A DNA stretch of 64,000 nucleotides, from positions 10,050-74,049 of the forward strand of contig CAZCCD010000002.1 in assembly GCA_964497435.1 (NCBI GenBank), in the 5' to 3' direction. Shown here in pieces: positions 32,819 to 50,856 of this stretch. The position numbers and the translations under genes were made by a program. The notes beneath the pieces were generated by a model. That model did not search any database and had not been told where the DNA came from. It saw only the letters and a program-made list of their open reading frames with translations. Position 1 is the stretch's first letter, and each line of letters begins with the position of its first letter. The DNA is from Candidatus Woesearchaeota archaeon (GTDB lineage Archaea; Nanobdellota; Nanobdellia; Pacearchaeales; GW2011-AR1).

Positions 32819-32819
32819 T

Positions 32820-33101: not shown

Positions 33102-33197
33102 AGAAAAAGTTATAATTCGTTATTTAAATACTTTTCCGTAATCTATTATAAACTATTGTATAACAAAATTTATAAGAATCCATTTACTGTATTTTCT

Positions 33198-33827: not shown

Positions 33828-33858
33828 AATATTTAAATGCATAAAACATAAAAATATA

Positions 33859-34095
33859 ATGGTTGAAGGAAAAAAATCATTTTTTTTAAGGAAAAAAACA
33901 ACCCTAATAATTGGAGTCATAGCCCTTATTTTTGGATTTGTCTTTTTAAATGAAGGAATTTTTACAGGAAGAGTCACAGGAAATGCCGTCGTTAGTGAGT
34001 ATAATCCTATTTTTAGTGCATTATCAATAATAGGAATACTCCTTGTTCTTTGTGCAGGAATCTTAATTATTTACTCTATGATTAAAGAGGAATAA
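33859..34095 (+). CDS. small membrane protein, hypothetical
   Basis: Two TM helices. Confidence 0.3.
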   Translation: MVEGKKSFFLRKKTTLIIGVIALIFGFVFLNEGIFTGRVTGNAVVSEYNPIFSALSIIGILLVLCAGILIIYSMIKEE

Positions 34096-34253
34096 AATGT
34101 TTAATATAGACAACCTTTCAACTTAAAATTTAATACGGTCTAATACAAAGGTTAATGTTAATAAGATAGAATAAATTTAAACATATCATAATTAGATTAT
34201 CCTTTAAAATAAATTTAACAAAAATATTTATACTATCTTTTTTTATTTTAAAA

Positions 34254-35807
34254 ATGTTTTCCAAGTTTTTACAAAACATAACTCCAAGGGAATATCAACA
34301 AAAAATATTTGAAACATGTGTTGAAAAAAATTGTCTAGTTGTTCTTCCTACTGGAATCGGAAAAACCCTAATAGCCCTTATGCTTGCAATTGAAAGAATG
34401 AAAAAATATCCAAAAGAAAAAATTGTTTTTTTAGCTCCTACAAAACCCTTAGCAGAACAGCATTTAAATTATTTTAAAAAACATCTTTCAGAATTGTTTG
34501 CAGACATTCAGCTTTTCACAGGTTCTGTAAAACCAGAAGAAAGGAAAAAAATATGGCAGATAGCAGATATAATATTTTCCACTCCTCAATGCATTGCGAA
34601 TGATTTAAGGAATAATTTGTATGATTTAAAAGAGGTCTGCCTTCTTATTGAAGATGAAGCACACAGATGCATAAAGAATTATGATTATAATTTTGTTTCA
34701 AAAAAATATAAAGAACAAGCATTAAATCAGAGAATTATTGGATTAACAGCCTCTCCAGGATCTGAGGCTTCTAAAATAAAAGAAATATGCAAAAATCTTT
34801 CAATAGAAGCAGTTGAACTAAGAACCAGAGAGAGTGATGATGTCAAAAACTATCTCCAAGAATTAAAATTTGAAAAAATAATTGTCGAATTTCCTAACGA
34901 GCTTGGAGAGATAAGACATGTGCTTAAAAAAATCTTCAATGAATATGTAGAAGAATTAAAAAATAGAAAGGTTCTATTTGGTCCAGCAACAAAGACGGGT
35001 CTCATAGAACTGCAAAAGAAAATTTCAGGATCTATTTCAAGAGGGAACAATAATTTTAATTTTCTTCGTGCAGCAAGTGCGTGTGCGCAGGCAATAAAAA
35101 TACAGCATGCACTTGAACTACTTGAAACACAAAATCTTCAAATCTTTAACAAATATCTTAAAGAACTTCTTAATCAGGCATCTAAAAAACAAAGCAGAGG
35201 TGTAATAAAGTTAGTTTCTAAGCCAGAATTTAATTTTGCTTTTACAAGAACAAATGAATTGCTTTCAAAAAACTTTGAGCATCCTAAATTAAATATACTA
35301 AAAGAAATAATAGAAAAAGAAATAAATGAAAATAAAAATGTAAAAATAATAATATTCGCACAATTTAGAGATACTGCATCTTTGTTATCCAAAAAATTAA
35401 GTGTAATTCCCGAAGTTAAATCAAAAGTCTTTGTCGGACAGGCAAAAAAATTAGACACTGGTTTAAGTCAGAAAGAGCAAAAGGAAATAATAAATGAATT
35501 TGAATCAGGAGGAGTAAATATTCTTGTTGCCACCGCAATTGGCGAAGAGGGTTTAGACATTCCAGAGGTTAATGCAGTCATTTTTTACGAGCCTGTTCCA
35601 AGTGCAATAAGGGCTATTCAAAGAGCAGGAAGAACAGCAAGATTAATGAAAGGGAAATTAATCATCTTAATAACAAAAGGAACAAGGGATGAAGCATTTT
35701 ATTATGTTTCTAGAGCAAAAGAAAAGAAAATGCATAAAAATATAGAAATAATAAAAGACAATTTAAATAACAAAAACAGATTTGAAAAGCAGGAAAAATT
35801 AGCATGA
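34254..35807 (+). CDS. hef: Hef/FANCM-type SF2 helicase (helicase half of a split Hef)
   Basis: Motif I VLPTGIGKTLIA, motif II LLIEDEAHRC, motif VI QRAGRTAR; insertion domain between the RecA lobes as in Hef. Confidence 0.85.
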   Translation: MFSKFLQNITPREYQQKIFETCVEKNCLVVLPTGIGKTLIALMLAIERMKKYPKEKIVFLAPTKPLAEQHLNYFKKHLSELFADIQLFTGSVKPEERKKIWQIADIIFSTPQCIANDLRNNLYDLKEVCLLIEDEAHRCIKNYDYNFVSKKYKEQALNQRIIGLTASPGSEASKIKEICKNLSIEAVELRTRESDDVKNYLQELKFEKIIVEFPNELGEIRHVLKKIFNEYVEELKNRKVLFGPATKTGLIELQKKISGSISRGNNNFNFLRAASACAQAIKIQHALELLETQNLQIFNKYLKELLNQASKKQSRGVIKLVSKPEFNFAFTRTNELLSKNFEHPKLNILKEIIEKEINENKNVKIIIFAQFRDTASLLSKKLSVIPEVKSKVFVGQAKKLDTGLSQKEQKEIINEFESGGVNILVATAIGEEGLDIPEVNAVIFYEPVPSAIRAIQRAGRTARLMKGKLIILITKGTRDEAFYYVSRAKEKKMHKNIEIIKDNLNNKNRFEKQEKLA

Positions 35808-36481
35808 CAAAATTTTATGAAATATTTTCAAAAAGGCCTTCTAAAATTATTAAAGAAAAGTCAAAAATCATAATCGATTATAGGGAAAAAAATTCTTTAG
35901 TTCCATCAATGCTTGTTAAGTTAGGGTATGACCTAGAATTTAAAGAGTTAAAAATAGCGGACTATCTTGTTAATGGGGTCGCTATCGAAAGGAAAACAAT
36001 TTCTGACTTTATATCTTCTATGATAAATAAAAGATTGTTAAAACAAATTGAAGAATTAAAACAATATCAAGATAAACTCTTAATTATTGAAGGATATGAG
36101 GAACAAGAGTTTTATAATGATGAGCCAGGAGGAATTAGTGGAAATGCGATTAGAGGATTTTTACTTTCAATAACATTAAAACACGGCATTCCAATAGTAT
36201 TTTCAAAAAATGCAAATGACACCGCAAAATTTATAGAAGTAATTGCCAAAAAAAAGAAAGAAGAAGATATATCACTTAAAGCCAAAAAAAGAGCTCTCTC
36301 AAAAAAAGAGCAACTACAATTTATTCTTGAAGGATTTCCAGGAATAGGGCCGAAAACAGCAAAAAAACTCTTGAAAAAATTCAAAACCCTTAAATCAATT
36401 TTTAATGTAAACGAAGAAGAATTAAAAAAACTTGTAGGAAAAAAAGCAGAAATATTTAAGCTTCTTAAAGAAAAATATTAA
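35804..36481 (+). CDS. ERCC4/XPF-type nuclease with HhH2 (nuclease half of a split Hef)
   Basis: IADYLVNGVAIERKTISDF (ERK catalytic motif), C-terminal GFPGIGPKTAKKLL HhH; start ATG overlaps the helicase stop (ATGA). Confidence 0.8.
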   Translation: MTKFYEIFSKRPSKIIKEKSKIIIDYREKNSLVPSMLVKLGYDLEFKELKIADYLVNGVAIERKTISDFISSMINKRLLKQIEELKQYQDKLLIIEGYEEQEFYNDEPGGISGNAIRGFLLSITLKHGIPIVFSKNANDTAKFIEVIAKKKKEEDISLKAKKRALSKKEQLQFILEGFPGIGPKTAKKLLKKFKTLKSIFNVNEEELKKLVGKKAEIFKLLKEKY

Positions 36482-36714
36482 ATCCTAATCCATATTTTAT
36501 ATTGCTTTTGACAATAGTGTTAAATTCAATTTATATTCTAATATAAAACTTTGATTAATCTTATATATTAACTACTCAAATTGTATCGAGAATATTTATT
36601 ATAAATAATTAATGAATAAATCCATTATTAACGATTTGTCTTATTACTATCAATATTTACCTTAGAGCGTAAAGCAAATTAAATGTTAAGATAAAGGATT
36701 TACTTTATATAATG

Positions 36715-37236
36715 TTAAAGCAAAGGATACTCTTCTAAAATATCATAAGATGGTCCGCTACTAGATAATGTAGATCTTTTTAATCTAAAATTATTGGTAT
36801 TAAAATTAATTTTAGGAATTTTAATGCTGTTTAATTCACTTAAAAATTTTTTCCTGTCTTTGATATTTTTAACCCTTGCTATAGTTAAATGTCCCATAAA
36901 TCTCTCTTCTTTCCCAAAAACCCATTCTAAGGCATTGTCAATCTTTTTTTGCAAATCTTCAGCACCTTTTAAATAAAGCCAGATAATTCTTATAAAATTA
37001 GGAGAAAAAACACCAATAGAATCTATTTCAATTTCAAAAGAATTAAATTTTACCATTCTAAGTCTTCTTTTAACTTCTTCAACTTTTTCTCTGTCCATCT
37101 CCCCTAAAAATTTCATGGTTAAATGTAAATTATTAGGTTCTGTTTTTTTCCCGATAAATTCAGGCAACTCATCCTGTATCTCTCTTATTCTTTCTCTTAT
37201 TTCTTCAGGCATATCAATTGAAATAAAACATCTCAT
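36715..37236 (-). CDS. thpR: RNA 2',3'-cyclic phosphodiesterase / 2'-5' RNA ligase (ThpR/LigT, 2H family)
   Basis: Two H-x-T-x motifs: NLHLTMKFLG and MGHLTIARV. Confidence 0.7.
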   Translation of the reverse strand: MRCFISIDMPEEIRERIREIQDELPEFIGKKTEPNNLHLTMKFLGEMDREKVEEVKRRLRMVKFNSFEIEIDSIGVFSPNFIRIIWLYLKGAEDLQKKIDNALEWVFGKEERFMGHLTIARVKNIKDRKKFLSELNSIKIPKINFNTNNFRLKRSTLSSSGPSYDILEEYPLL

Positions 37237-37237
37237 A

Positions 37238-37651
37238 TTAGTAATTGTCTAAAAGATAATGGCTATCTCTTACTTTAAACCCAAATTTTTTTAATAAATT
37301 AATTGAAGATAAATTTTCTTTCCTAACATGCGCATAAATCCATGGAACATCTCTTTTCTTAAACTCTTCTAAAACTTTTTTTGTTAGTAGCTGTGCAACT
37401 CCCTTTCCCCTAAAATCTTTTCTAACAATAATCTTATAAATATATCCATAATATCCGCCATCATCATTAGCAAATATGCTCCCGACAGTTAAATTATTTA
37501 CTATTGCAACAAAATAATAACCTCTATTCTTCCTTAGCATTCCTAAAAATCTTTTTTTTGTAAATTTATCAAAAACCATGTCTTCAAACTTTAATAGATT
37601 ATAAATTTCTTCATAATTACTTAGTTGTGTTTTTCTTATTTTTATATCCAT
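37238..37651 (-). CDS. GNAT family N-acetyltransferase
   Basis: VRKDFRGKGVAQLL acetyl-CoA binding motif A. Confidence 0.7.
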   Translation of the reverse strand: MDIKIRKTQLSNYEEIYNLLKFEDMVFDKFTKKRFLGMLRKNRGYYFVAIVNNLTVGSIFANDDGGYYGYIYKIIVRKDFRGKGVAQLLTKKVLEEFKKRDVPWIYAHVRKENLSSINLLKKFGFKVRDSHYLLDNY

Positions 37652-37657
37652 ATTGAA

Positions 37658-38467
37658 TTACAAAAATTCGCATAATATTTTAACTCCTAATTTAAGAGTC
37701 ATATTATCATGATTCTTATCTTTTTCTGGATTAATTTCTACAATATCAATGGCTTTGAGGTTTTTAACTTTATTAAGCCTTTGAATTAAATAAATTAATT
37801 CTCTGGAAGTTAATCCTCCTGGCTCTTTATATCCTGTCGCAGGAGCAAAAATAGGGTCTACAACATCTATGTCAATAGAAAGATAAAGCTCTTTCTTGTT
37901 AGAAAATTCCATTATACTATCACAGGCATCTTCTATATTTAAAAGCAAATTATTAATATCCATTCTTTTAACCTCCTTCTCTTTCATATATTTAATTTCT
38001 TCAACATCAGAATTTCTTAATCCGACTAACATTACATTTTCAGCAGGAAATCCGTAATCTATAAGGCCTCTTAACCATTCTTCATGAGTCGGAAAATTCT
38101 TATCAACAGGTTTCATGCAATCAGGATGAGCGTCAAAAACAATTAAACAGGGTTCTTTGTTATTTGCATTAGAATGTTTTAAAAAAGCCCTTATTGTTGA
38201 AAAACTAATAGAATGGTCTCCTCCTAAAAAAATAACCTTATCTTTGTTTAAAGATTCTAAAGAATTTTTGTAAATTAACTTATTTGTCAACTCTAAATTA
38301 TTATTGTCTAAATGTATTTCCTCTAAATCCAACAACTTAATGTCTATTGGTTTTCCTTGTTCATTGCTGTAAATCTCTTTCAAGGCCTCGAGTATTGCAT
38401 TTCCTGCTCTTTCACATCCATTTGTCTTTCCTAAACCATTTATACCTGGAACCTTAATAATTTGCAT
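37658..38467 (-). CDS. arginase/agmatinase family ureohydrolase
   Basis: GGDHSIS, VFDAHPD and SIDIDVVDP manganese-binding motifs. Confidence 0.75.
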   Translation of the reverse strand: MQIIKVPGINGLGKTNGCERAGNAILEALKEIYSNEQGKPIDIKLLDLEEIHLDNNNLELTNKLIYKNSLESLNKDKVIFLGGDHSISFSTIRAFLKHSNANNKEPCLIVFDAHPDCMKPVDKNFPTHEEWLRGLIDYGFPAENVMLVGLRNSDVEEIKYMKEKEVKRMDINNLLLNIEDACDSIMEFSNKKELYLSIDIDVVDPIFAPATGYKEPGGLTSRELIYLIQRLNKVKNLKAIDIVEINPEKDKNHDNMTLKLGVKILCEFL

Positions 38468-38528
38468 GAAATTAGAGGTAAAATATAGTTTTTAAGGTTA
38501 ATTAAATAAATCAATTATCAGTTTTATA

Positions 38529-39650
38529 TCATGTTCTTCTTGGGAATAATCTTCTTATATTAGGTCCTCTCATTGCCATGGGTCCTCTAGGAAACGGTGT
38601 CCTAATAAAAGGGCTTGAAATTGGGCTTTTCATATTAAGCAAAGAAGCTGGTTTTTGGGATGTTTTTTTAGGTTTAGAAAAAGAACCTCTTAACCTCTTT
38701 ACAATAAAAAAACTTACAACACCTATTCCTGAAAAAAGAACAAAGACAATTATGTAAAAAAGCCACATATAACTCTTATTAACCTTTTCCTTACAATCTG
38801 CAGGGCATAAAAAAGAGCTTTCATCTAAATCACAAGTATTATCTCCACAATAAGAGGACATCACAACAGGACAATATCCGCAATCGTTTACACAACTAGA
38901 GCAATCTTCATTTTCATCGCAAAAGCCATCACCACAAACCCTTTCTTGAGATGATAAGTCAACTCTAAAGGAAACTTCTTCACCATAAGAATTAGAAAAA
39001 GAGGAATATTTACTGGCATAAACATTTAGTGTATTTAATCCAACTGCTGAATTTATACTAGTATTGGGTGTGAAATCAACAAGAGAGCCTGAATTTAATG
39101 AATACTTCCAAAATCTTGCGTTTCTTTTTGTATCAATAACTCTCAAAGGTATGTTTGTTGAGCTATAAACCATTCCATCTTGAGGAGAAAAAAAGATTAT
39201 TTTTATAGAACCAGAACCTCCTCCCCCATTTTCGCCATCTTCACTTCCAAGTGGAACTCCACATATTCCTGGAATCTCGCCTTTTTCTTCCCATGCCTTT
39301 CCACTTCCACAAAGATAGGCTGTGTTTCCTTGGCAAAAATATCCAATATCAATTTCAGGATCACATTCTTCTCCAGTAAAAAATTCCCAAATTTCTCCTA
39401 ATTTATCTCCACCTTTAATTAGCTTTTCAGCAGATTCAAATCTCTGGCTACAAATTCCTTCTACACAAGATTCTCCAACACATTCATAATCATTAATACA
39501 TTGAGCTCCTCCAGTCTTAAGAGTTTTAAACTGGCCATCTACATCACAATACTTTCCATTACTCAAACTTCCTGCAATTTCACAAGTTTGAGAAGAAATA
39601 AAATTTATAAAAACTAAAAAAATAATTCCTAGAAAGTATTTTGAAGCCAT
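38529..39650 (-). CDS. Cys-rich secreted protein with C-terminal TM anchor and Pro/Arg-rich cytoplasmic tail
   Basis: Signal peptide; many Cys in CxxC/CGDG spacing; ENGGGGSGS linker; TM near C-terminus. Confidence 0.45.
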   Translation of the reverse strand: MASKYFLGIIFLVFINFISSQTCEIAGSLSNGKYCDVDGQFKTLKTGGAQCINDYECVGESCVEGICSQRFESAEKLIKGGDKLGEIWEFFTGEECDPEIDIGYFCQGNTAYLCGSGKAWEEKGEIPGICGVPLGSEDGENGGGGSGSIKIIFFSPQDGMVYSSTNIPLRVIDTKRNARFWKYSLNSGSLVDFTPNTSINSAVGLNTLNVYASKYSSFSNSYGEEVSFRVDLSSQERVCGDGFCDENEDCSSCVNDCGYCPVVMSSYCGDNTCDLDESSFLCPADCKEKVNKSYMWLFYIIVFVLFSGIGVVSFFIVKRLRGSFSKPKKTSQKPASLLNMKSPISSPFIRTPFPRGPMAMRGPNIRRLFPRRT

Positions 39651-39655
39651 CGTAG

Positions 39656-41509
39656 CTAATTGGTTGACCTCGAAGCACTATTGTCTACCTCATTGCCTCC
39701 AGTATTTCCTTGATCATCACTAGCTATACATCCTAAATAACCATTATTAGAAGCTGTCTGTCCTGCATCATCTCTGCTGAAAACATCTACAGGATGTATA
39801 ATTGCACACCAAATTTTTTGTAATAAACCAGCTTGTTTTTCTAGCTCTTGTTTAAGCAAGGTGCATTTTCCTTCTATACATACATTACTCTTACATTGAT
39901 AATCCTCGACACAACTCTGTCCTTCGTTCTTAGCACTCTCATATTTTAAAGTAAAAGGACTGCAATATTTTAACACCCCTCCAATTTCTGCCCTTGTTTT
40001 TGGAGAAATTCTAGGCCCTCCTTCAACAACAGGCTCGCAACTAATACCTCCTTCTTCTTCAGGAACTATACAGGCTCCTTTTTCACATCCATCATCACAT
40101 CTAATTATCTCTTCTTTTAACTCGCCAGACTCACAGTATAATTCCTTTAAATATGATCCTTTTTCTAAATCAGGACCTGTAAGAGAATCTCTACAAGAAT
40201 CTTGATAAATATCCTGTCCATTGACTAATGTAAATGCCCATTCATAATAGTTCTTTCCAAAATCACCGTCAGCGCAAGTTATCTCATCTTTTATGTCAAG
40301 AGGAACAGGAGCAGGACCAGTAGGAGAAATATAAGAAATTAAATAAACAATATCAGAGCTCTTAACTTCCCAGTCACCATTTACATCACCTATCCATAAA
40401 GGACTAGGAGCTGCTCCTCCTTTAAAAACATAATTTACAAGGTAATTAACATCTAGCTGATTAATACTCCCGTCTTTAGTTAAATCTCCTCTTTCCTTGA
40501 GAACAGGAGCTGGAGCATTTTTATTTAGATAATTTTCAAGATAAGTTATATCAGATGTTTTTACCTGACTATCACCATTTACATCACCTATCCATAAAGG
40601 ACTAGGAGCTACTCCTCCTTGAAGGACATAGCTTATTAATAGATTTAAGTCAGAAAAATCAATTTTATTATTTTTATCTAAATCTCCTACAACATAAGAA
40701 ACAGGGGCTGAGGCTCCGGTTGCACCATTTAAGTAATTTTGAAGGTAGAGTATATCAGCATTGCTTACATCACCATTTCCATTTACATCTCCTATCCATT
40801 CTGGAGATGGGGGAGTACCTGCCCTTAAAATGTAATCTGTTAAAAGATCAAGGTCTGCATTATTTATAATCTTGTTTTTGTCTAAATCTCCTATAAGATA
40901 TGATACAGGATCTGGAGCATCAACATTGCGACTTAAATAATTTTCTAAATAAGTTATATCTCCAACACTAACATCATTGTTTCCATTAACATCTCCTAAT
41001 TCAATAGGATCAGGAGCAGGGCCTGCTCTTAAAATGTAATCTGTTAACAAGTCAAGATCATCACTATCTATTACTCCATCTTTGTTTATATCGCCTGTTT
41101 GAAGAGGAACTGGTTTAGGACCCCTCGGAGAAATGTAAGAAATCAAATAAGTTATGTCTGCATTATTTACTATTTTGTCACCATTTACATCTCCTAATTC
41201 AATAGGATCAGGAGCTACTCCTCCTTTAAGAACATATTCTATTAAAAAATAAACATCTTCTATATCAATCTTCCCATCAATATTAACATCTCCTCTCTTT
41301 AATTCTATTTCAACATTTGTTTTAGAATCAATCCTCGTGAGATCTTGGCTTTCATTGATAGCAAAACCAACAATCCCTATTCCTGCAATTAGTATAGCAA
41401 GAGAAATAACAATTGAAATAACAATTACATACCTCTTTTTTCTGGCTCTATTTTGACCAGAGGTAGAGGCTTTGCCTCTTTTTTCCATGATATGTATAAC
41501 AAAAAACAC
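39656..41509 (-). CDS. membrane-anchored surface protein built from ~10 tandem dockerin-type (EF-hand-like Ca-binding) repeats plus C-terminal Cys-rich domain
   Basis: N-terminal TM; repeated ~33-aa units GDVN.DG.V...DI.YL..Y...GG.AP.P (e.g. GDVNIDGKIDIEDVYFLIEYVLKGGVAPDPIEL). Confidence 0.55.
   Translation of the reverse strand: MFFVIHIMEKRGKASTSGQNRARKKRYVIVISIVISLAILIAGIGIVGFAINESQDLTRIDSKTNVEIELKRGDVNIDGKIDIEDVYFLIEYVLKGGVAPDPIELGDVNGDKIVNNADITYLISYISPRGPKPVPLQTGDINKDGVIDSDDLDLLTDYILRAGPAPDPIELGDVNGNNDVSVGDITYLENYLSRNVDAPDPVSYLIGDLDKNKIINNADLDLLTDYILRAGTPPSPEWIGDVNGNGDVSNADILYLQNYLNGATGASAPVSYVVGDLDKNNKIDFSDLNLLISYVLQGGVAPSPLWIGDVNGDSQVKTSDITYLENYLNKNAPAPVLKERGDLTKDGSINQLDVNYLVNYVFKGGAAPSPLWIGDVNGDWEVKSSDIVYLISYISPTGPAPVPLDIKDEITCADGDFGKNYYEWAFTLVNGQDIYQDSCRDSLTGPDLEKGSYLKELYCESGELKEEIIRCDDGCEKGACIVPEEEGGISCEPVVEGGPRISPKTRAEIGGVLKYCSPFTLKYESAKNEGQSCVEDYQCKSNVCIEGKCTLLKQELEKQAGLLQKIWCAIIHPVDVFSRDDAGQTASNNGYLGCIASDDQGNTGGNEVDNSASRSTN
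40298..41296 (-). repeat. coding tandem array of ~10 dockerin-like 33-aa repeats inside 39656..41509
   Basis: Periodic GDVNG/GDLDK ... YL.NY ... AP.P units read from the translation; coordinates approximate. Confidence 0.6.
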
Positions 41510-41797
41510 TTTATAATTCTTTTTATATAATAAGATAAATATTTAATTTAAGTTTAGTTTAATAAAATATTTTTATTGATGTAAATATAACAATAAATTA
41601 CTAAAGTTTGATGCGACTCATAATAAATTTTCCATTTAAAATTAATAAATAAGATTCTTAACAGAATCAGAATTAGACAAATAATACCGAGGTAAGCATA
41701 TTTATCTTAAACTCAAATATACATAAAAAACAAAAACTATTTAAAATGCCTTTCCCTTATAAAAATACGACAAAGAGGTTGAAAGGAGGTAGATAAA

Positions 41798-41950
41798 ATG
41801 AACAAGCTAATTGGATGGATTTTCATCATAATTGGTGTCATAATGCTATTACCATTGCTAAACCTAACATTCTTAGGTACAGCAGGAGACTGGCTAGTTA
41901 TGCTAGGATACTTAGTAATCGGTATAATGTGGCTAATGCATACTAAATAA
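41798..41950 (+). CDS. candidate 50-aa two-TM mini-protein with strong Shine-Dalgarno
   Basis: aaaggaggtagataaaATG; MNKLIGWIFIIIGVIMLLPLLNLTFLGTAGDWLVMLGYLVIGIMWLMHTK; the antisense 72-aa track ORF is rejected in its favour. Confidence 0.45.
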   Translation: MNKLIGWIFIIIGVIMLLPLLNLTFLGTAGDWLVMLGYLVIGIMWLMHTK

Positions 41951-42035
41951 AACATTTATTTTTATTTATTTTTTATAATTTATTAGTTTTTACTAATTCT
42001 TGATTTAATTTATAGATTTAGAAATGTCTGTATAT

Positions 42036-44654
42036 TTAATTACTATAACTGTAACGTGCATCACAAGGAGCAGAGGGTTCGCAGAGATTATATGAATCTG
42101 AATCTTCAGGGTAACAACCAACACTCCCTGTACATGATACAACCATTGCTTCTGGCTCACCTGAAACTGAATTTGAAGTAGCCCTGCAGCCAGCATATTT
42201 AGTGCCTCCACAACCTGAAGAACATCTACCATAACATGTAACTAAAACTTTTGTTTTTGATTCTGTTGTCTTATCCCCTTTTATTATAACTTGGTTGCTG
42301 GACTCGGATTCTGCTGTCTTAGCATTTAAGACTAAAAATGAGCTATCACTAATTCTAATAGCTTGAGGGTTAGTTTTACTCTTCAATCCAAAAATTCTTC
42401 TAAATAAAGATGGTTTTGATTCTTTTTGAGTCTGTGAAAAATAACTTTCAACACCTTTCAAAGCTTCTTCTTTGTTTTCAGGGATAAGCTGAGGCGTACC
42501 TCCACTCCCACTAGAAACACAATTACATTGCGGAACAGGACCTGCCTTGAATATATAGTTAGTTAAATAAATAATATCCCCAGAATTTATTCCTGCGGAA
42601 TTATCAACATCTCCAATACATGATGGATTTGGAGCAGGCCCTCCTTTAAATACATAATTGATTAAATAAACAATATCTCCGGCAGTAACTCTGCCGTCAT
42701 TATTAACATTTCCGCAAATGTAATGAGGAATGTCTTCGGGCACACAGGCTCCATCAACACAGCCATATACACATTCGTCTGAAACAACTTGTGGTTCTGT
42801 TCCACTGCAGTAATATTCATTTAAGACATTAGAGTGTGAAATTAGTTGAATCTGTGCATTTACTCCTCCGCCAACAGGTCCTTCATTAGCATTCAACAAA
42901 TTAACAATAACTCCAAGAATCTCTTTAGAGGTTCCTTCTATTATTTCTTTAGTCTCAGATGCTCCTAGACTATTAGTTACCTTAATCGTGGCAGAAGTAT
43001 CTGTAGCACTTATTAATTCAAAAGTGTAATACTCTCCTTCATAATCTGCACCAACACTGGCTCCTATCGATAGTGTAAAAGAACTAAGACTTTCTCCACA
43101 CAGATCTTGTTTTGAATAAGATTTTCCATAACTATCATACCCATAAACACTTCCAACAGTAAACCACATTATTCCTCCATCTGTATCTGTGCAGGAAGCC
43201 GTCGTTATGCCTGAGCACTCACTAAATTTAATATAAGCTCCATTTGTATTGTCATAAGATTCAAAAATAAAATGTAATTTATCAAAAACAGGGTTTGTCC
43301 ATGTCTGTCCTAATTTAATCTCGTCATTATCTGAATCAGAAGCGAAGAAAGAGACAATAAATCCTGTAGTAGAAGCCCAACTCGCACCACTTCTTGTTAC
43401 TAAAGTTCCATCTACAGGTATTCCATCAGATCCACGAATTACTTCAGAACCATGAGTTAGTTTTAATACGTCAGAACCAACAAATAACTGTGCTCTAATA
43501 ACTCCAAAAGAGTCTTCATCAACAACAACAAGAGAAACAACTACGCCTTGTATTTCTTTAAAAGAGTATTCACTTATTTCTTTTATTTCAGATGCTCCAT
43601 TTGAATCAGTGACTTTAATAGTTGCAGAAGTGTCTGATCCTGAAATCAATTCAATTGTATAAGTCACTCCATTAATTAATGTTTCTACTTTTGAAGGTTC
43701 AGATCCTCCAAGAGATACATCTACTTTTCCAACAGGCCCTGTTCCCATTCCCAACAAATATAAATCACTAGCCGTAGTTCCAGCTCCAACAATATATTCT
43801 TTATCAGATAAAGATATTGGTTCTCCAATAGAATCAAGATGAGTAAAATCTACAGCTCTATTAAAGATTATATTATACCTATAAAGAGGTCTAGAACTAA
43901 TTGTACTCATCTGAACATGAACATAACCTGTGTCATTTTCAAGAGTGTTGTTTCCAATAGTTAAAGTCTGCACAAAATTTGCACCAACGTTTCCTTCGAA
44001 AATTCCATCAGCTAAAATAGTTGGAATATCTGATTTAGTCAGAACGGTCTTTACTTTGTTAATAGGATCTCCAATAAACAATTTAGAACTAGGAGTATGT
44101 AAATAAGCACTCTCGCATGTTGGCTGAACACATCCTTCATCAATGCCTAAAGCACAATTGTCATCAATTCCATTGCAAACCTCTGCCATGCCAGGATTTA
44201 TATTTGGATTATTATCGTTGCAGTCTTGAGGGTCGCAACTATCTCCAACCCCATACCCATCATTATCATTGTCTACACATGTTGAAGGTATACAAATCCC
44301 ATTACTGCATCCACCAGGACATGGTGTACAAATTCCTTCAGTCCAGGTTTGTGTGCAGTTTCCAGTTATATTATTGCATTGAAAATAAATAGTTGAGGTG
44401 CAGGCGTCGTTTCCAGAACAATACTGTGTTGTTATAGGAGGACAATCAGAATTTGTCGTGCATGACGCAGTTCCACTAGTCACAGACGAAACATATCCTT
44501 GAACACCTTGAGCATAGCTTGATTCTTCAATTTCAAGCACAGGAGATTTTCTTACAGCTTCGCCTGTTGGAGATTTTCCTATGTTTGCAATAAGAATAAC
44601 TATAACAAGAACTAAAGCTACCAAACCCAAAAACATCACCCTCTTTTGATCCAT
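42036..44654 (-). CDS. large secreted Cys-rich surface protein with internal duplicated domain and one dockerin-type repeat pair
   Basis: Signal/TM at N-terminus; duplicated ~45-aa segment (TYTIELISGSDTSATIKVTDSNGASEIKEI vs YYTFELISATDTSATIKVTNSLGASETKEI); GNVNNDGRVTAGDIVYLINYVFKGGPAPNP/GDVDNSAGINSGDIIYLTNYIFKAGPVP. Confidence 0.5.
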   Translation of the reverse strand: MDQKRVMFLGLVALVLVIVILIANIGKSPTGEAVRKSPVLEIEESSYAQGVQGYVSSVTSGTASCTTNSDCPPITTQYCSGNDACTSTIYFQCNNITGNCTQTWTEGICTPCPGGCSNGICIPSTCVDNDNDGYGVGDSCDPQDCNDNNPNINPGMAEVCNGIDDNCALGIDEGCVQPTCESAYLHTPSSKLFIGDPINKVKTVLTKSDIPTILADGIFEGNVGANFVQTLTIGNNTLENDTGYVHVQMSTISSRPLYRYNIIFNRAVDFTHLDSIGEPISLSDKEYIVGAGTTASDLYLLGMGTGPVGKVDVSLGGSEPSKVETLINGVTYTIELISGSDTSATIKVTDSNGASEIKEISEYSFKEIQGVVVSLVVVDEDSFGVIRAQLFVGSDVLKLTHGSEVIRGSDGIPVDGTLVTRSGASWASTTGFIVSFFASDSDNDEIKLGQTWTNPVFDKLHFIFESYDNTNGAYIKFSECSGITTASCTDTDGGIMWFTVGSVYGYDSYGKSYSKQDLCGESLSSFTLSIGASVGADYEGEYYTFELISATDTSATIKVTNSLGASETKEIIEGTSKEILGVIVNLLNANEGPVGGGVNAQIQLISHSNVLNEYYCSGTEPQVVSDECVYGCVDGACVPEDIPHYICGNVNNDGRVTAGDIVYLINYVFKGGPAPNPSCIGDVDNSAGINSGDIIYLTNYIFKAGPVPQCNCVSSGSGGTPQLIPENKEEALKGVESYFSQTQKESKPSLFRRIFGLKSKTNPQAIRISDSSFLVLNAKTAESESSNQVIIKGDKTTESKTKVLVTCYGRCSSGCGGTKYAGCRATSNSVSGEPEAMVVSCTGSVGCYPEDSDSYNLCEPSAPCDARYSYSN

Positions 44655-44740
44655 TAATTTTCTTAAGAATATTAAGTTTATAAATGTTTTTTTTGAAAGT
44701 GGTGATTTTGTTAATTTTAAAGAAAAAAAATAAGAATAGA

Positions 44741-44800
44741 ACCGCTCGCTTCGCCCGCTCTAAAATTGCTAGTTCGCAAAACTCACTAGTTATTTAATAA
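44741..44800 (+). repeat. intergenic copy of a short GC-rich palindromic repeat family
   Basis: accgctcgcttcgcccgctctaaaattgctagttcgcaaaactcactagtta; related words at 49101..49160 and partially at ~20010..20045, 20735..20765, 20845..20880. Confidence 0.45.
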
Positions 44801-44953
44801 AGTTTAATGGTAAAATGTCTTGAGGTTATAAAGTACATCTAGATTTGATAGACTAATTAAATTTTTATTACAACTTAAATATTTCATGTGGAGAATCATA
44901 CAGAATACTGATTCAGAACAAATAAATCATCTCAAAATAGTAATTTCATAAAA

Positions 44954-46153
44954 TCACTCAGGCACCAACGCAAAAAAACTATAATTCTTTACTTTAGCCA
45001 GCTCTTTTACATCTTCTAATTTTACTGCCTTTATCTTTTCCTCAAACTCATAAAATTCTCCTGCATTCCCTGACATTTCATACAATAGCAAAGACATCAT
45101 CTGATCTTGGGAATCTTCTATAGCTATCTGATAATTTCCAAGAAGCTGGTCTTTTACTTCATTCAGCTCTTTTTCAGTTAAATCCTTAGAAACTTTTTCA
45201 AGCTCTTCTATTATCAGGCTTTTTACTTTCTCAACATTTTCTTTAGTTGTCCCAACATAAACAAATGTGTAAGAAAAATCTTTTTCTATATTTGCCTGTG
45301 CCCTGACAGAATAAGCAAGATTTCTTTTCTCTCTTATCTCTGAAAACAATCTTGAAGACATGCCTCCTCCAAGAATGCATGAAAGGACTCTTGATGCATA
45401 ACTAAGCTTATCATTTTTAAGAGGAGTATGCCATGCAAAAACCAAATTAGCCTGATCCAATCCTTTTCTTTTTTCAATTCCTTCATGATTTTTTGTCTTA
45501 ACTTCAAACCTTGGAATTTTTCCTTTTTCATTTCCAAAGGTTTTCTCTGCGAAATTAATAAGTTTGTCAAGATCAGTATTTCCAACAACACACAAAACCA
45601 TGTTATTTGGCTTGTAGACTTCTTTAAATTTAGCAATAATTTTCTTCCTGTCTATAGAAGACATTGTTTTTTCAGTTCCTATTAAATCCAAGCCAAGAGG
45701 AGCTTCATAAAGATAATTCTGTATCTTATCAAAAACATAAACAACCGGATTGTCTTTCCTCATCTTAATTTCCTCAAAAATGACTTTTCTTTCTTTGTCC
45801 ATTTCTTTTTCGTCAAACAAAGAATTTTTAACCATGTCAGAAAGAACAGCTAAAGCAACATCTAAATGTCTGCTAGGCATCTTGCACCAGTAAGCTGTTA
45901 TTGACTCATCAGTAAAGCCATTAAGAATTCCTCCATTTCTTTCAATTTCTTCAGCAATCTTCTTGGCATTTCTTGTTGGGGTTCCTTTATACAACATATG
46001 TTCTATAAAATGCGAGATTCCTTTTTCACTAACATGCTCATTCATTCCTCCATTTCTGACCGCGATTGCAACACTGACAATAGGCAAATCCCTTTTTTCA
46101 AATATTATTGTCATGCCATTTTTTAAGACTTTTCTGAAAAATTTTGGTTTCAT
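44954..46153 (-). CDS. M16 family zinc metallopeptidase (pitrilysin-like)
   Basis: Inverted zinc motif HFIEH, downstream NGFTDESITAY glutamate region. Confidence 0.85.
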   Translation of the reverse strand: MKPKFFRKVLKNGMTIIFEKRDLPIVSVAIAVRNGGMNEHVSEKGISHFIEHMLYKGTPTRNAKKIAEEIERNGGILNGFTDESITAYWCKMPSRHLDVALAVLSDMVKNSLFDEKEMDKERKVIFEEIKMRKDNPVVYVFDKIQNYLYEAPLGLDLIGTEKTMSSIDRKKIIAKFKEVYKPNNMVLCVVGNTDLDKLINFAEKTFGNEKGKIPRFEVKTKNHEGIEKRKGLDQANLVFAWHTPLKNDKLSYASRVLSCILGGGMSSRLFSEIREKRNLAYSVRAQANIEKDFSYTFVYVGTTKENVEKVKSLIIEELEKVSKDLTEKELNEVKDQLLGNYQIAIEDSQDQMMSLLLYEMSGNAGEFYEFEEKIKAVKLEDVKELAKVKNYSFFALVPE

Positions 46154-46195
46154 AAAACAGAAAAATAGGAAGGGTATTTAAATTTTGTTTTAAAA

Positions 46196-46498
46196 TTATT
46201 TTTTCCTTAGAAATTGATAAAGCATGCCAATCAAAGCCCCGATTATAAAAGCCTCAATAATTAAAGATGTGAAAAGTAAAAAGTTGTTGCAAACTCCAGA
46301 ACCACCAACATCAAAACACCCATTGCCAAAAGCTTCTGTAAAAAATAAGCTAAGAATAAAATATAATGCAAGCAAAAAGAAGAAAGATATCCCGGAAAAA
46401 ATATTAATTTTAGAAAATAATAAGCCAACAAGAATAAGAGCTATTAATCCAAAAATAATTCCTCCCTTTAGCCAATAAGGCCATGTTTTCCAACTCAT
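46196..46498 (-). CDS. small membrane protein, hypothetical
   Basis: 3 TM helices. Confidence 0.35.
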   Translation of the reverse strand: MSWKTWPYWLKGGIIFGLIALILVGLLFSKINIFSGISFFFLLALYFILSLFFTEAFGNGCFDVGGSGVCNNFLLFTSLIIEAFIIGALIGMLYQFLRKK

Positions 46499-46512
46499 AA
46501 TTAAAAAAAGAA

Positions 46513-47289
46513 TTAAGTCTTTTTAAAATTTTTGTTAAAAACCAAATACCTTTCACCCCCTAACTCAAAATCATCCAGCAAATTAAAACTGTCTTTTATG
46601 AAATCAGTGATCCAATTTCTAGAAACTTTAAATTTCCTTTTTTTAATCATGCTTCTAGTTGCAAAGCTAACAACTACTTTATCAACTAAAGGAACAATCT
46701 CACTTAATAATTTCTTAGAATAATCATGTTTTAACATTTCAAGAGAATCCAAAGTCTTAAACAAAAAAATAATTTTATATCCTTTAACACTCTTAATTAA
46801 TTCTTTTACTTTAGATAAATCAAATAATGAAAAATGATAAGCCTTTCCGCTAATTTTATTTTTCTTAAAATAATCATTAGTTAGATCAACTAACTGTCCG
46901 ATAGAATCAATTCCGATATAATTTACATTTCCCATAAATTTATAACTAAATCCATTAACACCTGCTCCGAGATCAATTATGGTTATCACCTCTTTTTTAG
47001 ATTCATTTCCAAGAATCCTCCCATACAATTCCTTATAAAATTCTAAGCGTTCTCTTGTCGACAAATGTTTCCTTAAAATCCACTCTTCATCCTTATTTTT
47101 ATGGCTCAATAATTTCCCACTAGTAAAGCTAGAAAAAACCTTATGTAGGAGTTCTCTGGTCAATCTAATTTTTTCTTCATCAGAAACTTGCCTTTTTTTA
47201 AAGTGGCTGAAAGCCATTTCAATGTCTTCTCTTGGCAATTTTGAAAATTCTTTCTTTTTTGTTATTTGTTTATAAATTTTTATGTTCAT
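46513..47289 (-). CDS. class I SAM-dependent methyltransferase
   Basis: Motif I ITIIDLGAGVNGF, motif II-like IGIDS, Rossmann pattern. Confidence 0.5.
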   Translation of the reverse strand: MNIKIYKQITKKKEFSKLPREDIEMAFSHFKKRQVSDEEKIRLTRELLHKVFSSFTSGKLLSHKNKDEEWILRKHLSTRERLEFYKELYGRILGNESKKEVITIIDLGAGVNGFSYKFMGNVNYIGIDSIGQLVDLTNDYFKKNKISGKAYHFSLFDLSKVKELIKSVKGYKIIFLFKTLDSLEMLKHDYSKKLLSEIVPLVDKVVVSFATRSMIKKRKFKVSRNWITDFIKDSFNLLDDFELGGERYLVFNKNFKKT

Positions 47290-47822
47290 TTTCTACTAAT
47301 AAATTTATTACCTTTAATGTAAAACCTTAAATTTTCATTAAGATCTTTTTTAACACCGATTCTTTTAGAAGATATTATTTTATATTTATTTTTTTCCTTA
47401 ATATTTTCTAACCATAATTCTTTATTATTAATTATATCTTTTTTATGAAATCTTTTATTAATTTTTAAGGTTCTTGTTAAAAGTCCTGGGCCAGAAGTTT
47501 TCGCTTCAAAATTCAACGGCTCTATAGCCCTTATCAAAACAGCTTCTGCTTTTCCTTTTTTTCCCGTAACAATATTAAAAAGCCATTGATTATGCACCCC
47601 ATAAACTAAAATTGTATCTGGTTTCATTAACATTGTATCTCTTAAATCTCCATTTTTAACAGCCCTAGAAGCAGGATCTTCACTTCCAAAATAAGCTTCT
47701 GTTTCTACAATTTTTGCTTTTAAAATTTCATTATTAATGTTTCTAACAAGAATTTTTCCTAATAAATCTCTTGCAACTATCCTGACATTTCGCAAAAAAA
47801 AGTTTTTGTTGAGTTTCATTTT
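47286..47822 (-). CDS. DNA-3-methyladenine glycosylase (AAG/MPG family)
   Basis: IVETEAYFGSEDPASRA, LVYGVHNQWLFNIV, AVLIRAIEP; start placed at the Met beginning MKLNKNFFLR so it abuts rather than overlaps 47821..48363. Confidence 0.75.
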   Translation of the reverse strand, partial: KMKLNKNFFLRNVRIVARDLLGKILVRNINNEILKAKIVETEAYFGSEDPASRAVKNGDLRDTMLMKPDTILVYGVHNQWLFNIVTGKKGKAEAVLIRAIEPLNFEAKTSGPGLLTRTLKINKRFHKKDIINNKELWLENIKEKNKYKIISSKRIGVKKDLNENLRFYIKGNKFISRK

Positions 47823-48363
47823 ATTTAACAATTTCAATATTTTGTTCTTTACAAAAACTATCAAAATCTTTGAAGTAAATATCTCCTTTGAAAAAAATAT
47901 ATTCTTCAGGCGAGTCTTCAAATATGACTTTTTTAGAAAGTTTATAAGAAGCAGTTTCTGTAGTTTTCCTTACCCTGATTAATCTCCTTATCATATCGCT
48001 ATTTCCTAATTCCGGATATTTAGATAATTCATCAAAAAAGAATAATGCTGGCCACATTTTTACAGATAAATCAAAAATTTCTTCATCAGATTCTACCACC
48101 TCAATACTATTAATTAATTCATAAAAATTATCACATACTTTATTGAAAAAATCTTCTGTAAATTTTTCTTTAAACCATTCGTCAAAAATTTCTGCTTCCT
48201 CTAAATCATAATAAAGCGTCATAAAACCATTTTTACAGACAAATAAATGATTGAAATAGCCTATTCCCGCTAGCTTTTTTAACTCCTCAGATTCACCTTT
48301 ATACCAAGCTTTAACGTCAAATAAAGAACATTCACGAGTTAGGGCTTTCTTATACTTTTTCAT
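47821..48363 (-). CDS. hypothetical protein (acidic, Phe-rich)
   Basis: ORF only. Confidence 0.35.
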   Translation of the reverse strand: MKKYKKALTRECSLFDVKAWYKGESEELKKLAGIGYFNHLFVCKNGFMTLYYDLEEAEIFDEWFKEKFTEDFFNKVCDNFYELINSIEVVESDEEIFDLSVKMWPALFFFDELSKYPELGNSDMIRRLIRVRKTTETASYKLSKKVIFEDSPEEYIFFKGDIYFKDFDSFCKEQNIEIVK

Positions 48364-48403
48364 AAAATATTTAATAAAGGTTTATTTAAAAATTATAGTC
48401 AAA

Positions 48404-50518: not shown

Positions 50519-50594
50519 AAATACCCCAATAATCTAAAATATATAAATCTTCCTATATGCTTAAAGATCTCGATGTTGTTGAGTTTAAGACGAG

Positions 50595-50846: not shown

Positions 50847-50856
50847 AATAATATGA

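What the first reader, a model, noticed from the sequence alone, without database searches (positions are those of the whole stretch)
38529..44654. Cluster of membrane-anchored surface proteins built from tandem dockerin-type repeats
39656..41509 encodes about ten consecutive 33-aa EF-hand-like dockerin repeats (GDVN.DG...DI.YL.NY...GG.AP.P), whereas classical dockerins have two. The same repeat pair recurs near the C-terminus of the 872-aa Cys-rich protein 42036..44654. A third Cys-rich anchored protein lies alongside. No cohesin-like partner is obvious in the window. In a small-genome, probably host-dependent archaeon, these are candidates for Ca-dependent cell-cell attachment.
Basis: partly seen in the sequence, partly recalled or inferred. 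Interest (0 to 1): 0.6.

Follow-up and report, generated by a model that had tools for sequence, protein, structure and literature searches.

The report
Five-dockerin surface protein cassette, DPANN archaeon
A tiny uncultured archaeon carries a membrane-anchored surface protein built from five calcium-binding "dockerin" plug modules in a row, next to two partner surface proteins. This is a real and rare arrangement that already has precedents, and the socket it plugs into is still unknown.

Summary
The ORF at 39656..41509 (-) encodes ten 33-35-aa Ca-loop/helix segments at aa 73-407. They alternate in two types, so they form five complete type-I-like dockerin modules. Pfam Dockerin_1 scores E=6e-46. 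The AlphaFold model is confident over the array and superposes on solved dockerins at 1.5-2.8 A. The 872-aa neighbour carries one Cys-flanked dockerin at aa 647-713. Its core is homologous to S-layer-like proteins of Pacearchaeota, Woesearchaeota and Nanoarchaeota. The third ORF is a type-I membrane protein with 20 Cys.

New findings: the five-dockerin gene and the third gene recur as an adjacent pair in a related contig. They are fused into one protein in two archaeal MAGs. The cassette sits in a conserved housekeeping neighbourhood where the surface-gene content varies between relatives.

No Pfam cohesin was found in 53 window ORFs. No carbohydrate-active enzyme domain was found, so this is not a cellulosome.

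Arrays of five or more dockerins are rare but known, in Patescibacteria, Omnitrophota and Clostridia.

The most likely role is a Ca2+-dependent multivalent docking or adhesion device on the cell surface. Attachment to a host is plausible but untested. I rate it a new variant of a known kind, of moderate interest.

The parts
39656..41509 (-). p1: N-terminally membrane-anchored poly-dockerin protein. It is 617 aa from the GTG start, or 610 aa from the ATG at 41488, which matches the length of the database copy P0001.
   Evidence: The ORF is listed. Pfam Dockerin_1 scores E=6e-46. An identical protein, P0001, is in NCBI on a 138.8-kb contig. The orthologue P0245 is 41% identical and colinear over 539 aa.
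41357..41431 (-). p1 transmembrane anchor (aa ~27-51). It is preceded by a basic cytoplasmic N-terminus (RARKKR).
   Evidence: The hydrophobicity scan finds one TM segment. AF2 models one long helix over aa 21-58. The topology, with the C-terminus outside, is inferred from the positive-inside rule.
41096..41293 (-). Dockerin module 1 (aa 73-138; segments 1 and 2).
   Evidence: pLDDT is ~88-94.
40892..41095 (-). Dockerin module 2 (aa 139-206).
40688..40891 (-). Dockerin module 3 (aa 207-274).
   Evidence: The PDB sequence match to the double dockerin 8x39 spans aa 204-329.
40490..40687 (-). Dockerin module 4 (aa 275-340).
   Evidence: The best Pfam stretch is aa 308-361.
40289..40489 (-). Dockerin module 5 (aa 341-407).
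   Evidence: The best stretch of the profile search is aa 334-398 of P0001.
40070..40276 (-). p1 Cys-rich 'CxDxD...C...GAC' domain (aa ~412-480). It has no family assignment.
   Evidence: The same domain (CTDSDGG...) is present in the orthologues P0245 and P0248, in p2 from aa ~488, and as a stand-alone gene in L061 at 8525-8896. There is no Pfam hit and AF2 confidence is low.
39800..40039 (-). p1 C-terminal Cys-rich module plus helix (aa ~491-570). It is paralogous to the N-terminal module of p3.
   Evidence: BLASTP of the p1 C-terminus against p3 aa 24-76 gives E=1e-5 with 35% identity over 54 aa. The module is conserved in P0245 and P0248.
38529..39650 (-). p3: type-I membrane protein of 373 aa. 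It has a signal-like N-terminus, Cys-rich modules, a conserved ~85-aa module of unknown fold (aa ~148-232), CGDGxC repeats, a TM at aa ~294-317 and a basic tail. It starts 5 nt after the p1 stop codon.
   Evidence: There are no Pfam or NCBIfam hits. The orthologue lies directly downstream of the p1-like gene in L066 (47% identity over 322 aa, E=1e-94). In P0254 and P0255 it is fused behind dockerin arrays (40% over 218 aa, E=1e-47).
42036..44654 (-). p2: 872-aa N-terminally anchored mosaic surface protein with 36 Cys.
   Evidence: The closest homologue, P0121, sits at the syntenic position in L064.
44136..44225 (-). p2 MopE-type Cys-rich 'putative metal-binding' motif (aa 144-173).
   Evidence: Pfam PF11617 scores E=8.2e-10.
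43215..44117 (-). p2 S-layer-protein-like all-beta domain (aa ~180-480).
   Evidence: It is homologous (32-41% identity) to the N-terminal half of ~880-aa Pacearchaeota, Woesearchaeota and Nanoarchaeota proteins, many of which carry PF05124 S_layer_C. AF2 pLDDT is >90. The only significant PDB fold match is 3u2g, the M. acetivorans S-layer MA0829 DUF1608 domain, at E=7.8e-5.
42744..43193 (-). p2 CxDxD Cys-rich domain (aa ~488-637). It carries an inserted second copy of the small S-layer subdomain (YYTFELISATDTSATIKVTN...).
   Evidence: The sequence repeat is visible. pLDDT is 76-92 for aa 525-605. The domain is conserved in P0121.
42516..42716 (-). p2 single dockerin module (aa 647-713). It is flanked by Cys 647, 679, 710 and 712, which could form a disulfide clasp.
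   Evidence: Pfam PF00404 scores E=2.5e-6. The local HMM gives 1.8e-17 and 2.3e-16.
41798..41950 (+). Small 50-aa hydrophobic ORF on the opposite strand between p2 and p1. It separates the two transcription units.
   Evidence: A near-identical 52-aa ORF lies at the same relative position in L064.

Best explanation
The region is a surface-protein cassette of a Pacearchaeota/Woesearchaeota-type (DPANN) archaeon.

Anatomy:
- p1 is held in the membrane by one N-terminal helix. Outside the cell it displays five tandem type-I-like dockerin modules, which together contain ten Ca2+-binding F-hand segments. Two Cys-rich modules follow the array.
- p1 is translationally adjacent to p3, and the two act together. 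p3 is a type-I membrane protein with Cys-rich modules and a conserved module of unknown fold.
- p2 is a separate, N-terminally anchored mosaic protein. It combines an S-layer-protein-like beta domain with one Cys-flanked dockerin.

Proposed mechanism (inferred):
- Ca2+ folds each dockerin module.
- The array then acts as a multivalent plug strip. It binds cohesin-like or other partner domains that are not encoded nearby.
- This would either build a complex on the archaeon's own envelope or attach the cell to another cell.

What is shown: the dockerin identity and fold, the membrane segments, the p1-p3 coupling, the S-layer homology of p2 and the lineage.

What is inferred: Ca2+ binding, the existence and nature of the partner, and any role in adhesion.
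For: - Dockerin identity: Pfam E=6e-46 for p1 and 2.5e-6 for p2. PDB sequence hits are the C. thermocellum double dockerin 8x39 and 17 other dockerin-bearing chains. Ca-ligand positions are intact in all 10 loops. The two-type alternation shows 5 full modules. The AF2 model is confident over the array, and Foldseek returns only dockerins with probability ~1.
- Surface location: single TM or signal segments are predicted, and Cys-rich extracellular-type modules are present.
- p1-p3 coupling: the two genes are separated by 5 nt. An orthologous adjacent pair occurs in L066. The fusions P0254 ([archaeon]) and P0255 ([Nanoarchaeota archaeon]) join dockerin arrays to a p3-like module. p1 and p3 also share a paralogous Cys module.
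- p2 S-layer relation. S-layer-like paralogues that end in a dockerin (P0127, P0135) exist in related archaea.
- Conserved genomic position with variable content: the block is M16 peptidase, surface genes, arginase/LigT, ERCC4 and DEAD helicase.
- Multivalent arrays are recurrent in other ultrasmall lineages. Among the top array-bearing hits, those with a source name are mostly Patescibacteria or Parcubacteria. An adhesin role has been proposed for nine dockerins in Omnitrophota (PMC10066038). A dockerin-domain envelope protein is essential in an epibiotic Saccharibacterium (PMC10633639).
Against: - No cohesin was found. No PF00963 hit appeared in 53 window ORFs. Single-sequence cohesin searches of ~990 kb of window plus related DPANN loci found nothing.
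- The helix-surface positions that contact cohesin in clostridial dockerins (10, 11, 17, 18, 22) are poorly conserved between p1 and its orthologue P0245, at 0-4 of 10 identical. The structural positions D1, D12, L16 and Y19 are 10 of 10 identical. This fits fast co-evolution with a partner. It fits equally well with no specific binding surface at all.
- The family is rare. Only about six members were found. L064, a syntenic relative, lacks p1 and p3 entirely, so the function is dispensable.
- Ca2+ binding, surface exposure and expression are all untested.
Confidence: 0.55

Rival explanations
1. The array is a structural stalk and has no cohesin partner. Five Ca2+-rigidified dockerin modules would serve only as a spacer of defined length. 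The spacer would lift the Cys-rich C-terminal head of p1, or the p3-like module in the fusion proteins, away from the membrane and through the S-layer. Any binding would be done by the Cys-rich modules.
For: - The array lies between the membrane anchor and the distal Cys-rich domains.
- Structural residues are invariant, while the canonical cohesin-contact positions drift freely between orthologues.
- Module number is roughly kept at 4-5 in P0245, P0254 and P0255.
- No cohesin was found.
Against: - Known dockerins are protein-binding modules.
- In P0248 the modules are interspersed with Cys domains rather than forming one spacer.
- p2 and the L061 217-aa protein carry a single dockerin that is not positioned as a spacer.
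- The AF2 model gives no defined inter-module geometry (pTM 0.36).
Confidence: 0.22
2. The cassette serves self-envelope assembly rather than host attachment. The dockerins of p1 and p2 would tether these proteins, or S-layer-like subunits, to a cohesin-like domain in the archaeon's own S-layer or envelope. This would be analogous to anchoring scaffoldins, but with reversed polarity.
For: - p2 carries an S-layer-protein-like domain plus a dockerin.
- The S-layer paralogues P0127 and P0135 have a C-terminal dockerin in place of the usual C-terminal region.
- A large NxS/T-rich S-layer-like protein at 6659-10234 lies in the same window.
Against: - p1 and p2 already have their own membrane anchors.
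- Only 2 other dockerin ORFs occur in 879 kb around S-layer-like genes of 60 related loci, so this is not a general S-layer mechanism.
- No cohesin signature was found in the S-layer-like proteins.
Confidence: 0.15
3. The cassette is a cellulosome-like polysaccharide-degrading complex, in which the dockerins recruit the proteins to a scaffoldin that organises carbohydrate-active enzymes.
For: The only support is the domain name. The dockerin family was defined in cellulosomes, and the best PDB hits are cellulosomal.
Against: - None of the three proteins has a glycoside hydrolase, CBM or other catalytic domain.
- No cohesin, scaffoldin or glycoside-hydrolase/CBM family was matched in 53 window ORFs.
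- The dockerin-bearing proteins are themselves membrane-anchored.
Confidence: 0.03

Closest known systems
Type I dockerin modules of clostridial cellulosomes (Pfam PF00404; e.g. Xyn10B dockerin in 1OHZ/2CCL, Cel48S dockerin in 2MTE)
   Same: The module is a duplicated ~22-residue Ca-binding loop plus helix (F-hand) with D1/N3/D5/D12 ligands. The predicted fold superposes at 1.5-2.8 A with TM 0.65-0.84.
   Different: Five modules lie in tandem instead of one. The host protein is non-enzymatic and membrane-anchored. The organism is an archaeon. The linkers are of the 'GG(x)AP(x)P' type shared with non-cellulosomal dockerins of Zixibacteria and FCB bacteria. No cohesin partner was found.
Multi-dockerin proteins of Clostridia: the C. 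thermocellum double dockerin Clo1313_0689 (PDB 8X39/8X3A), and triple to septuple dockerins in R. flavefaciens and Oscillospiraceae (review PMC12484212)
   Same: Whole dockerin modules are arranged in tandem. 8x39 is the best PDB hit by both sequence and fold.
   Different: Those proteins belong to organisms with cohesin scaffoldins. The solved example is attached to an S8 protease. None is reported with a TM anchor or a p3-like partner.
Non-cellulosomal dockerin arrays of ultrasmall bacteria: nine PF00404 domains in an Omnitrophota giant ORF (PMC10066038), and Patescibacteria/Parcubacteria proteins with 9-12 modules (P0002, P0242, P0243, P0247)
   Same: Each has an array of many dockerin modules of the same sequence subtype on a predicted surface protein of a small-celled, probably host-associated organism. 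A cohesin-independent adhesin role has been proposed.
   Different: Those are bacterial. They are often fused to an S8 protease or a peptidoglycan-binding domain. There is no relation to the p1 C-terminal domains or to p3. Sequence identity to p1 is only ~30%.
Pacearchaeota/Woesearchaeota S-layer-like proteins (~880 aa, PF05124 S_layer_C), and the M. acetivorans MA0829 DUF1608 S-layer fold (PDB 3U2G)
   Same: p2 aa ~180-480 is homologous to the N-terminal half of these proteins and is predicted as the same all-beta architecture.
   Different: p2 lacks their C-terminal half. It has its own N-terminal anchor, Cys-rich modules and a dockerin. It is a mosaic paralogue, not the canonical S-layer subunit.

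Membership tests
Dockerin type I (PF00404) | The sequence matches the family profile above the curated threshold. | tested here: met
   p1 scores 154.9 bits against a cutoff of 22.9 (E=6e-46, 6 stretches). p2 scores 28.0 bits against 22.9.
Dockerin type I (PF00404) | The module consists of two tandem segments, each a 12-residue Ca-binding loop (D-x-N/D-x-D/N-...-D12) followed by a helix. | tested here: met
   All 10 p1 segments and both p2 segments carry the ligand pattern. The two segment types alternate.
Dockerin type I (PF00404) | The three-dimensional dockerin fold. | tested here: met
   AF2 pLDDT is ~75-98 over aa 73-407. Twenty-eight of the top 29 Foldseek PDB hits are dockerins, with TMt 0.65-0.84 for single modules. 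This is a prediction, not an experimental structure.
Dockerin type I (PF00404) | Ca2+-dependent folding and binding to a cohesin module. | not testable with these tools
   This needs ITC or CD with Ca2+ and binding assays.
Cohesin-dockerin system / cellulosome | A cohesin-bearing partner (PF00963) is encoded by the organism. | tested here: inconclusive
   None was found in 53 window ORFs. None was found in ~990 kb of window plus related loci by phmmer or jackhmmer with two cohesin seeds. Only 64 kb of this genome is visible, and divergent cohesin-like folds were not screened structurally.
Cohesin-dockerin system / cellulosome | Dockerins are appended to carbohydrate-active or other enzymes. 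| tested here: not met
   No catalytic domain was found in p1, p2 or p3.
Archaeal S-layer-like protein family (PF05124-containing, Pacearchaeota type), for p2 | Full-length homology, including the C-terminal S_layer_C region. | tested here: not met
   Only p2 aa ~180-640 align, which is 31-36% query coverage for most homologues. No PF05124 hit was found in p2 itself. The shared domain is real: pLDDT is >90 and the fold match to 3u2g is significant.
p1/p3 poly-dockerin cassette (family proposed here) | An N-terminal anchor, 4-5 dockerin modules and Cys-rich modules, with the p3-like module encoded immediately downstream or fused. | tested here: met
   Members are the window p1-p3 pair, L066 (P0248 plus a 355-aa ORF), P0254 and P0255 (fusions), and P0245, a p1 orthologue on a 2.2-kb contig.

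The most novel reading that the evidence does not exclude
The poly-dockerin/p3 pair could be a host-attachment device of DPANN archaea. Its dockerin modules would bind a ligand other than a self-encoded cohesin, either a host surface protein or glycan or a host-encoded cohesin-like domain. On this reading, long dockerin arrays are a convergent adhesion solution shared by ultrasmall episymbionts (DPANN, Patescibacteria, Omnitrophota). The variable surface-gene slot between the M16 peptidase and the ERCC4/helicase genes would be a host-range locus.
Probability: 0.2. Interest if true: 0.75.

Novelty: new variant of a known kind. Interest (0 to 1): 0.42.

Why it matters
How DPANN archaea physically hold on to other cells is largely unknown. 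Only a few surface proteins have been implicated.

This locus gives a concrete, testable candidate. It is a membrane-anchored strip of five well-understood Ca2+-dependent protein-plug modules, genetically coupled to a second membrane protein by a conserved gene pair and by fusions. It sits at a genomic site whose surface-gene content differs between close relatives.

The locus also extends non-cellulosomal multi-dockerin architectures to archaea. It links dockerins to S-layer-like proteins. If no cohesin exists in these genomes, this would become one of the clearer cases for a cohesin-independent function of dockerins.

If the partner turns out to be an ordinary self-encoded cohesin, the finding is a modest addition to the known spread of cohesin-dockerin modules.

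Tried and rejected
- Tandem Repeats Finder on the DNA found no array with a ~100- or ~200-nt period. The repeat is visible only at protein level.
- The look-up of encoding contigs for the identical protein P0001 returned 'not on record', so the rest of the 138.8-kb contig could not be read.
- The genome-contig scan did not return the window's own genome, so whole-genome cohesin screening was impossible.
- The third homology search, seeded with the cohesin domain of P0217, returned nothing. That search was wasted.
This is a weak negative.
- The metagenome scan with the p3 family found only 2 loci, one of which duplicates L062.
- Chen et al. 2024 (PMC10949318) and Peer et al. 2009 (PMC3035643) are not held in the library. 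Both are cited only through papers that cite them.
- The AF2 models are uninformative for the Cys-rich regions of p1 (aa 407-617) and p2 (aa 26-177 and 606-872), because the alignments lacked coverage there.
- The test of module-by-module orthology between p1 and P0245 was inconclusive. Best matches are not positional.
- The cellulosome reading was rejected because there are no enzymes and no scaffoldin.
- Chance or a low-complexity artefact was rejected on the E-values.
- The idea that p1 and p3 are one gene split by an error was rejected. p3 has its own start and signal-like N-terminus, and the same two-gene arrangement occurs in L066.

Full report
**1. Observation**

The three minus-strand ORFs exist as described: p3 at 38529..39650 (373 aa), p1 at 39656..41509 (617 aa, GTG start) and p2 at 42036..44654 (872 aa). 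The database copy of p1 (P0001, 100% identical, NCBI, on a 138.8-kb contig) is 610 aa, consistent with a start at the ATG at 41488.

A motif scan finds exactly ten repeats in p1, starting at aa 73, 106, 139, 172, 207, 240, 275, 308, 341 and 374. It finds the repeat pair in p2 and none in p3. An HMM built from the repeats finds them nowhere else in the 64-kb window.

All ten loops keep the canonical Ca-ligand positions D1, N/D/T3, D/N5 and D12. Odd and even repeats form two classes, with 49% and 55% identity within class and 34% between classes. The real unit is therefore a two-segment module of 66-68 aa present five times.

No DNA-level tandem repeat is detectable. The array is old, not a recent expansion or an assembly artefact.

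**2. Identity of the repeats**

Pfam Dockerin_1 matches p1 at E=6e-46 (154.9 bits, cutoff 22.9). It matches p2 at E=2.5e-6 over aa 650-701.

A sequence search of the PDB returns the C. thermocellum S8-protease double dockerin (8x39/8x3a, E=1.5e-9), followed by 17 other dockerin-bearing chains, mostly type I.

AlphaFold2 with a 50-sequence alignment gives pLDDT of about 75-98 across aa 73-407, with one loop plus helix per segment. Foldseek against the PDB returns 8x39 first. About 25 single dockerins follow, with TM (target-normalised) 0.65-0.84 and rmsd 1.5-2.8 A.

**3. The three proteins**

p1 has a basic N-terminus and a single TM helix at aa ~27-51. The five dockerins follow. Next comes a Cys-rich 'CxDxD...GAC' domain at aa ~412-480. 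The protein ends with a second Cys-rich module plus helix at aa ~491-570, which is paralogous to the N-terminal module of p3 (E=1e-5).

p3 has a signal-like N-terminus, 20 Cys, a conserved ~85-aa module of unknown fold, CGDGxC repeats, a C-terminal TM and a basic tail. It matches no Pfam or NCBIfam family.

p2 has an N-terminal hydrophobic anchor and a MopE-type Cys motif (PF11617, E=8e-10). It also has a central domain at aa ~180-480 and a CxDxD domain carrying a second copy of a small subdomain. The Cys-flanked dockerin lies at aa 647-713, followed by a Cys-rich tail.

The central domain of p2 is homologous (32-41% identity) to the N-terminal half of a family of ~880-aa proteins from Pacearchaeota, Woesearchaeota and Nanoarchaeota. 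Many of those carry PF05124 (S_layer_C). The domain is predicted with pLDDT >90 as all-beta. Its only significant PDB fold match is the Methanosarcina S-layer DUF1608 domain 3u2g (E=7.8e-5). It is not a cohesin.

Two S-layer-like paralogues in related archaea (P0127, P0135) end in a dockerin instead of the usual C-terminal region.

**4. Organism and context**

The window is archaeal. It encodes PolD DP2 with an intein, the PolD small subunit and RadA. GC content is ~31%. Fifty-nine of the 60 genome loci related to p2 come from Pacearchaeota, Woesearchaeota, Nanoarchaeota or unclassified-archaeon MAGs. The exception, L060, is a weak match (E=2e-4) in a Myxococcales contig.

Synteny with relatives is clear. 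The window order is:
- Window: M16 peptidase, p2, a small ORF, p1, p3, arginase, GNAT, LigT, ERCC4 and DEAD helicase.
- L064: the same block with a p2-like gene (P0121) but no p1 or p3.
- L066: arginase and LigT, then a p1-like gene (P0248) followed directly by a p3 orthologue (47% identity over 322 aa, E=1e-94), then ERCC4 and the helicase.
- L061: M16, then a stand-alone CxDxD protein, a 217-aa single-dockerin protein and P0255, then LigT, ERCC4 and the helicase.

P0255 ([Nanoarchaeota archaeon]) and P0254 ([archaeon]) are single polypeptides. In each, a dockerin array (about 4-5 modules by inspection of the sequences) is fused to the p3-like module, including its C-terminal TM. P0245 is a colinear orthologue of p1, with 41% identity over 539 aa and five modules.

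The p1-p3 relationship is thus supported three ways: adjacency (a 5-nt gap), conservation of the pair, and two gene fusions. The slot in this housekeeping block behaves as a variable surface-gene site.

**5. How unusual is it?**

A profile of the module was searched against 1.84 billion representative proteins. It finds 19,628 proteins at E<=1e-3 and only 80 at E<=1e-30. Roughly 35 of the best 150 have five or more matched stretches, with a maximum of 12.

Among the top array-bearing hits, those that carry a source name are mostly Patescibacteria or Parcubacteria. One is from an FCB bacterium and one is labelled only 'bacterium'.

The literature already records several cases:
- double dockerins in C. 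thermocellum, and triple to septuple ones in Ruminococcus and Oscillospiraceae (review PMC12484212);
- nine non-cellulosomal dockerins in an Omnitrophota giant ORF, interpreted as an adhesin (PMC10066038);
- an essential dockerin-domain envelope protein in an epibiotic Saccharibacterium (PMC10633639).

No paper in the searchable library links dockerins with Woesearchaeota, Pacearchaeota or Nanoarchaeota. One database entry (P0254) is already auto-annotated as 'dockerin type I domain-containing protein [archaeon]'.

The architecture is therefore rare and undescribed for DPANN archaea, but it is a variant of a known kind.

**6. Partner and mechanism**

No Pfam cohesin is present in 53 window ORFs, including every one with an N-terminal hydrophobic segment. 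The 1191-aa NxS/T-rich S-layer-like protein has no PDB sequence relatives. Single-sequence and iterative cohesin searches of ~990 kb of window plus related loci were negative. The rest of the genome could not be read.

Between p1 and P0245, the structural positions D1, D12, L16 and Y19 are invariant in 10 of 10 segments. Positions equivalent to clostridial cohesin contacts (10, 11, 17, 18, 22) are identical in only 0-4 of 10. This fits either fast co-evolution with a partner or the absence of a specific binding face.

I commit to a Ca2+-dependent multivalent docking or adhesion device acting together with p3 (confidence ~0.55). Whether the target is self or foreign remains open. The rivals are:
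- a pure Ca-rigidified stalk (0.22);
- self-envelope or S-layer assembly (0.15);
- a cellulosome (0.03, essentially excluded because no enzymes or scaffoldin are present).

**7. Verdict**

The added value of this analysis is fourfold: the five-module structure, the S-layer relation of p2, the conserved or fused p1-p3 pair, and the variable syntenic slot.

I rate the novelty as a new variant of a known kind, and the interest as moderate (0.42).

Noticed in passing
window 41798..41950 (+): A 50-aa hydrophobic ORF (MNKLIGWIFIIIGVIMLLPLL...GIMWLMHTK) lies on the opposite strand between p2 and p1. A near-identical 52-aa ORF occupies the same relative position after the p2 homologue in L064 (12590-12748). 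It is therefore probably a real small membrane-protein gene. It falls below usual ORF-length cut-offs.
   Followed up: partly
window ~17478..30048 (-): This looks like a type IV pilus or archaellum-like locus. It contains a prepilin peptidase (PF01478, 17478-18314), a run of small proteins each with one N-terminal TM (20225-24053), a 9-TM protein (24425-26590) and a T2SSE-type ATPase (27709-30048). It could be a second surface or attachment system in the same window.
   Followed up: partly
window 6659..10234 (-): A 1191-aa protein with an N-terminal signal-like segment, very many N-x-S/T sequons, a poly-Ser linker and a C-terminal TM anchor. It has no Pfam or PDB sequence hit. It is a candidate S-layer or major envelope glycoprotein. 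Its fold, including any cohesin-like domain, was not examined.
   Followed up: partly
window 3867..6467 (-), 57649..62541 (-), 49424..50518 (-): Two intein-containing genes are present. One is an 866-aa ORF with an intein, LAGLIDADG and HTH domains. The other is PolD DP2 with an intein and LAGLIDADG domain. There is also a free-standing LAGLIDADG-domain ORF. That is an unusually high density of homing-endonuclease elements for 64 kb.
   Followed up: no
window 42036..42515 (p2 aa ~714-872); P0121 C-terminus; L061 9241..9954: After the dockerin, p2, its homologue P0121 and the L061 single-dockerin protein share a short helix ending in a 'hydrophobic-F-(K/R)-R/N-I-F' motif (SLFRRIFG, NLFKRIFS, AFFRNIF). 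P0121 ends 7 residues after the motif and the L061 protein ends at it. p2 continues for ~110 more Cys-rich residues. This could be a sorting or membrane-association signal, with a p2-specific extension.
   Followed up: no
window 38529..44654 versus L061, L064, L066: The slot between the M16 peptidase and the ERCC4/DEAD-helicase genes holds a different set of surface-protein genes in each related genome. The contents range from p2-like only, to a p1-like plus p3-like pair, to a single-dockerin protein plus a fusion. The flanking housekeeping genes stay colinear.
   Followed up: yes
window 1..64000: No tRNA gene (ARAGORN) and no Rfam family at gathering threshold were found in 64 kb.
   Followed up: no
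window 41488..41509: The start of p1 is ambiguous. The ORF listing extends the ORF to a GTG at 41509 (617 aa). The 610-aa length of the database copy matches a start at the ATG at 41488. The extra seven residues (MFFVIHI) are probably not translated.
   Followed up: partly
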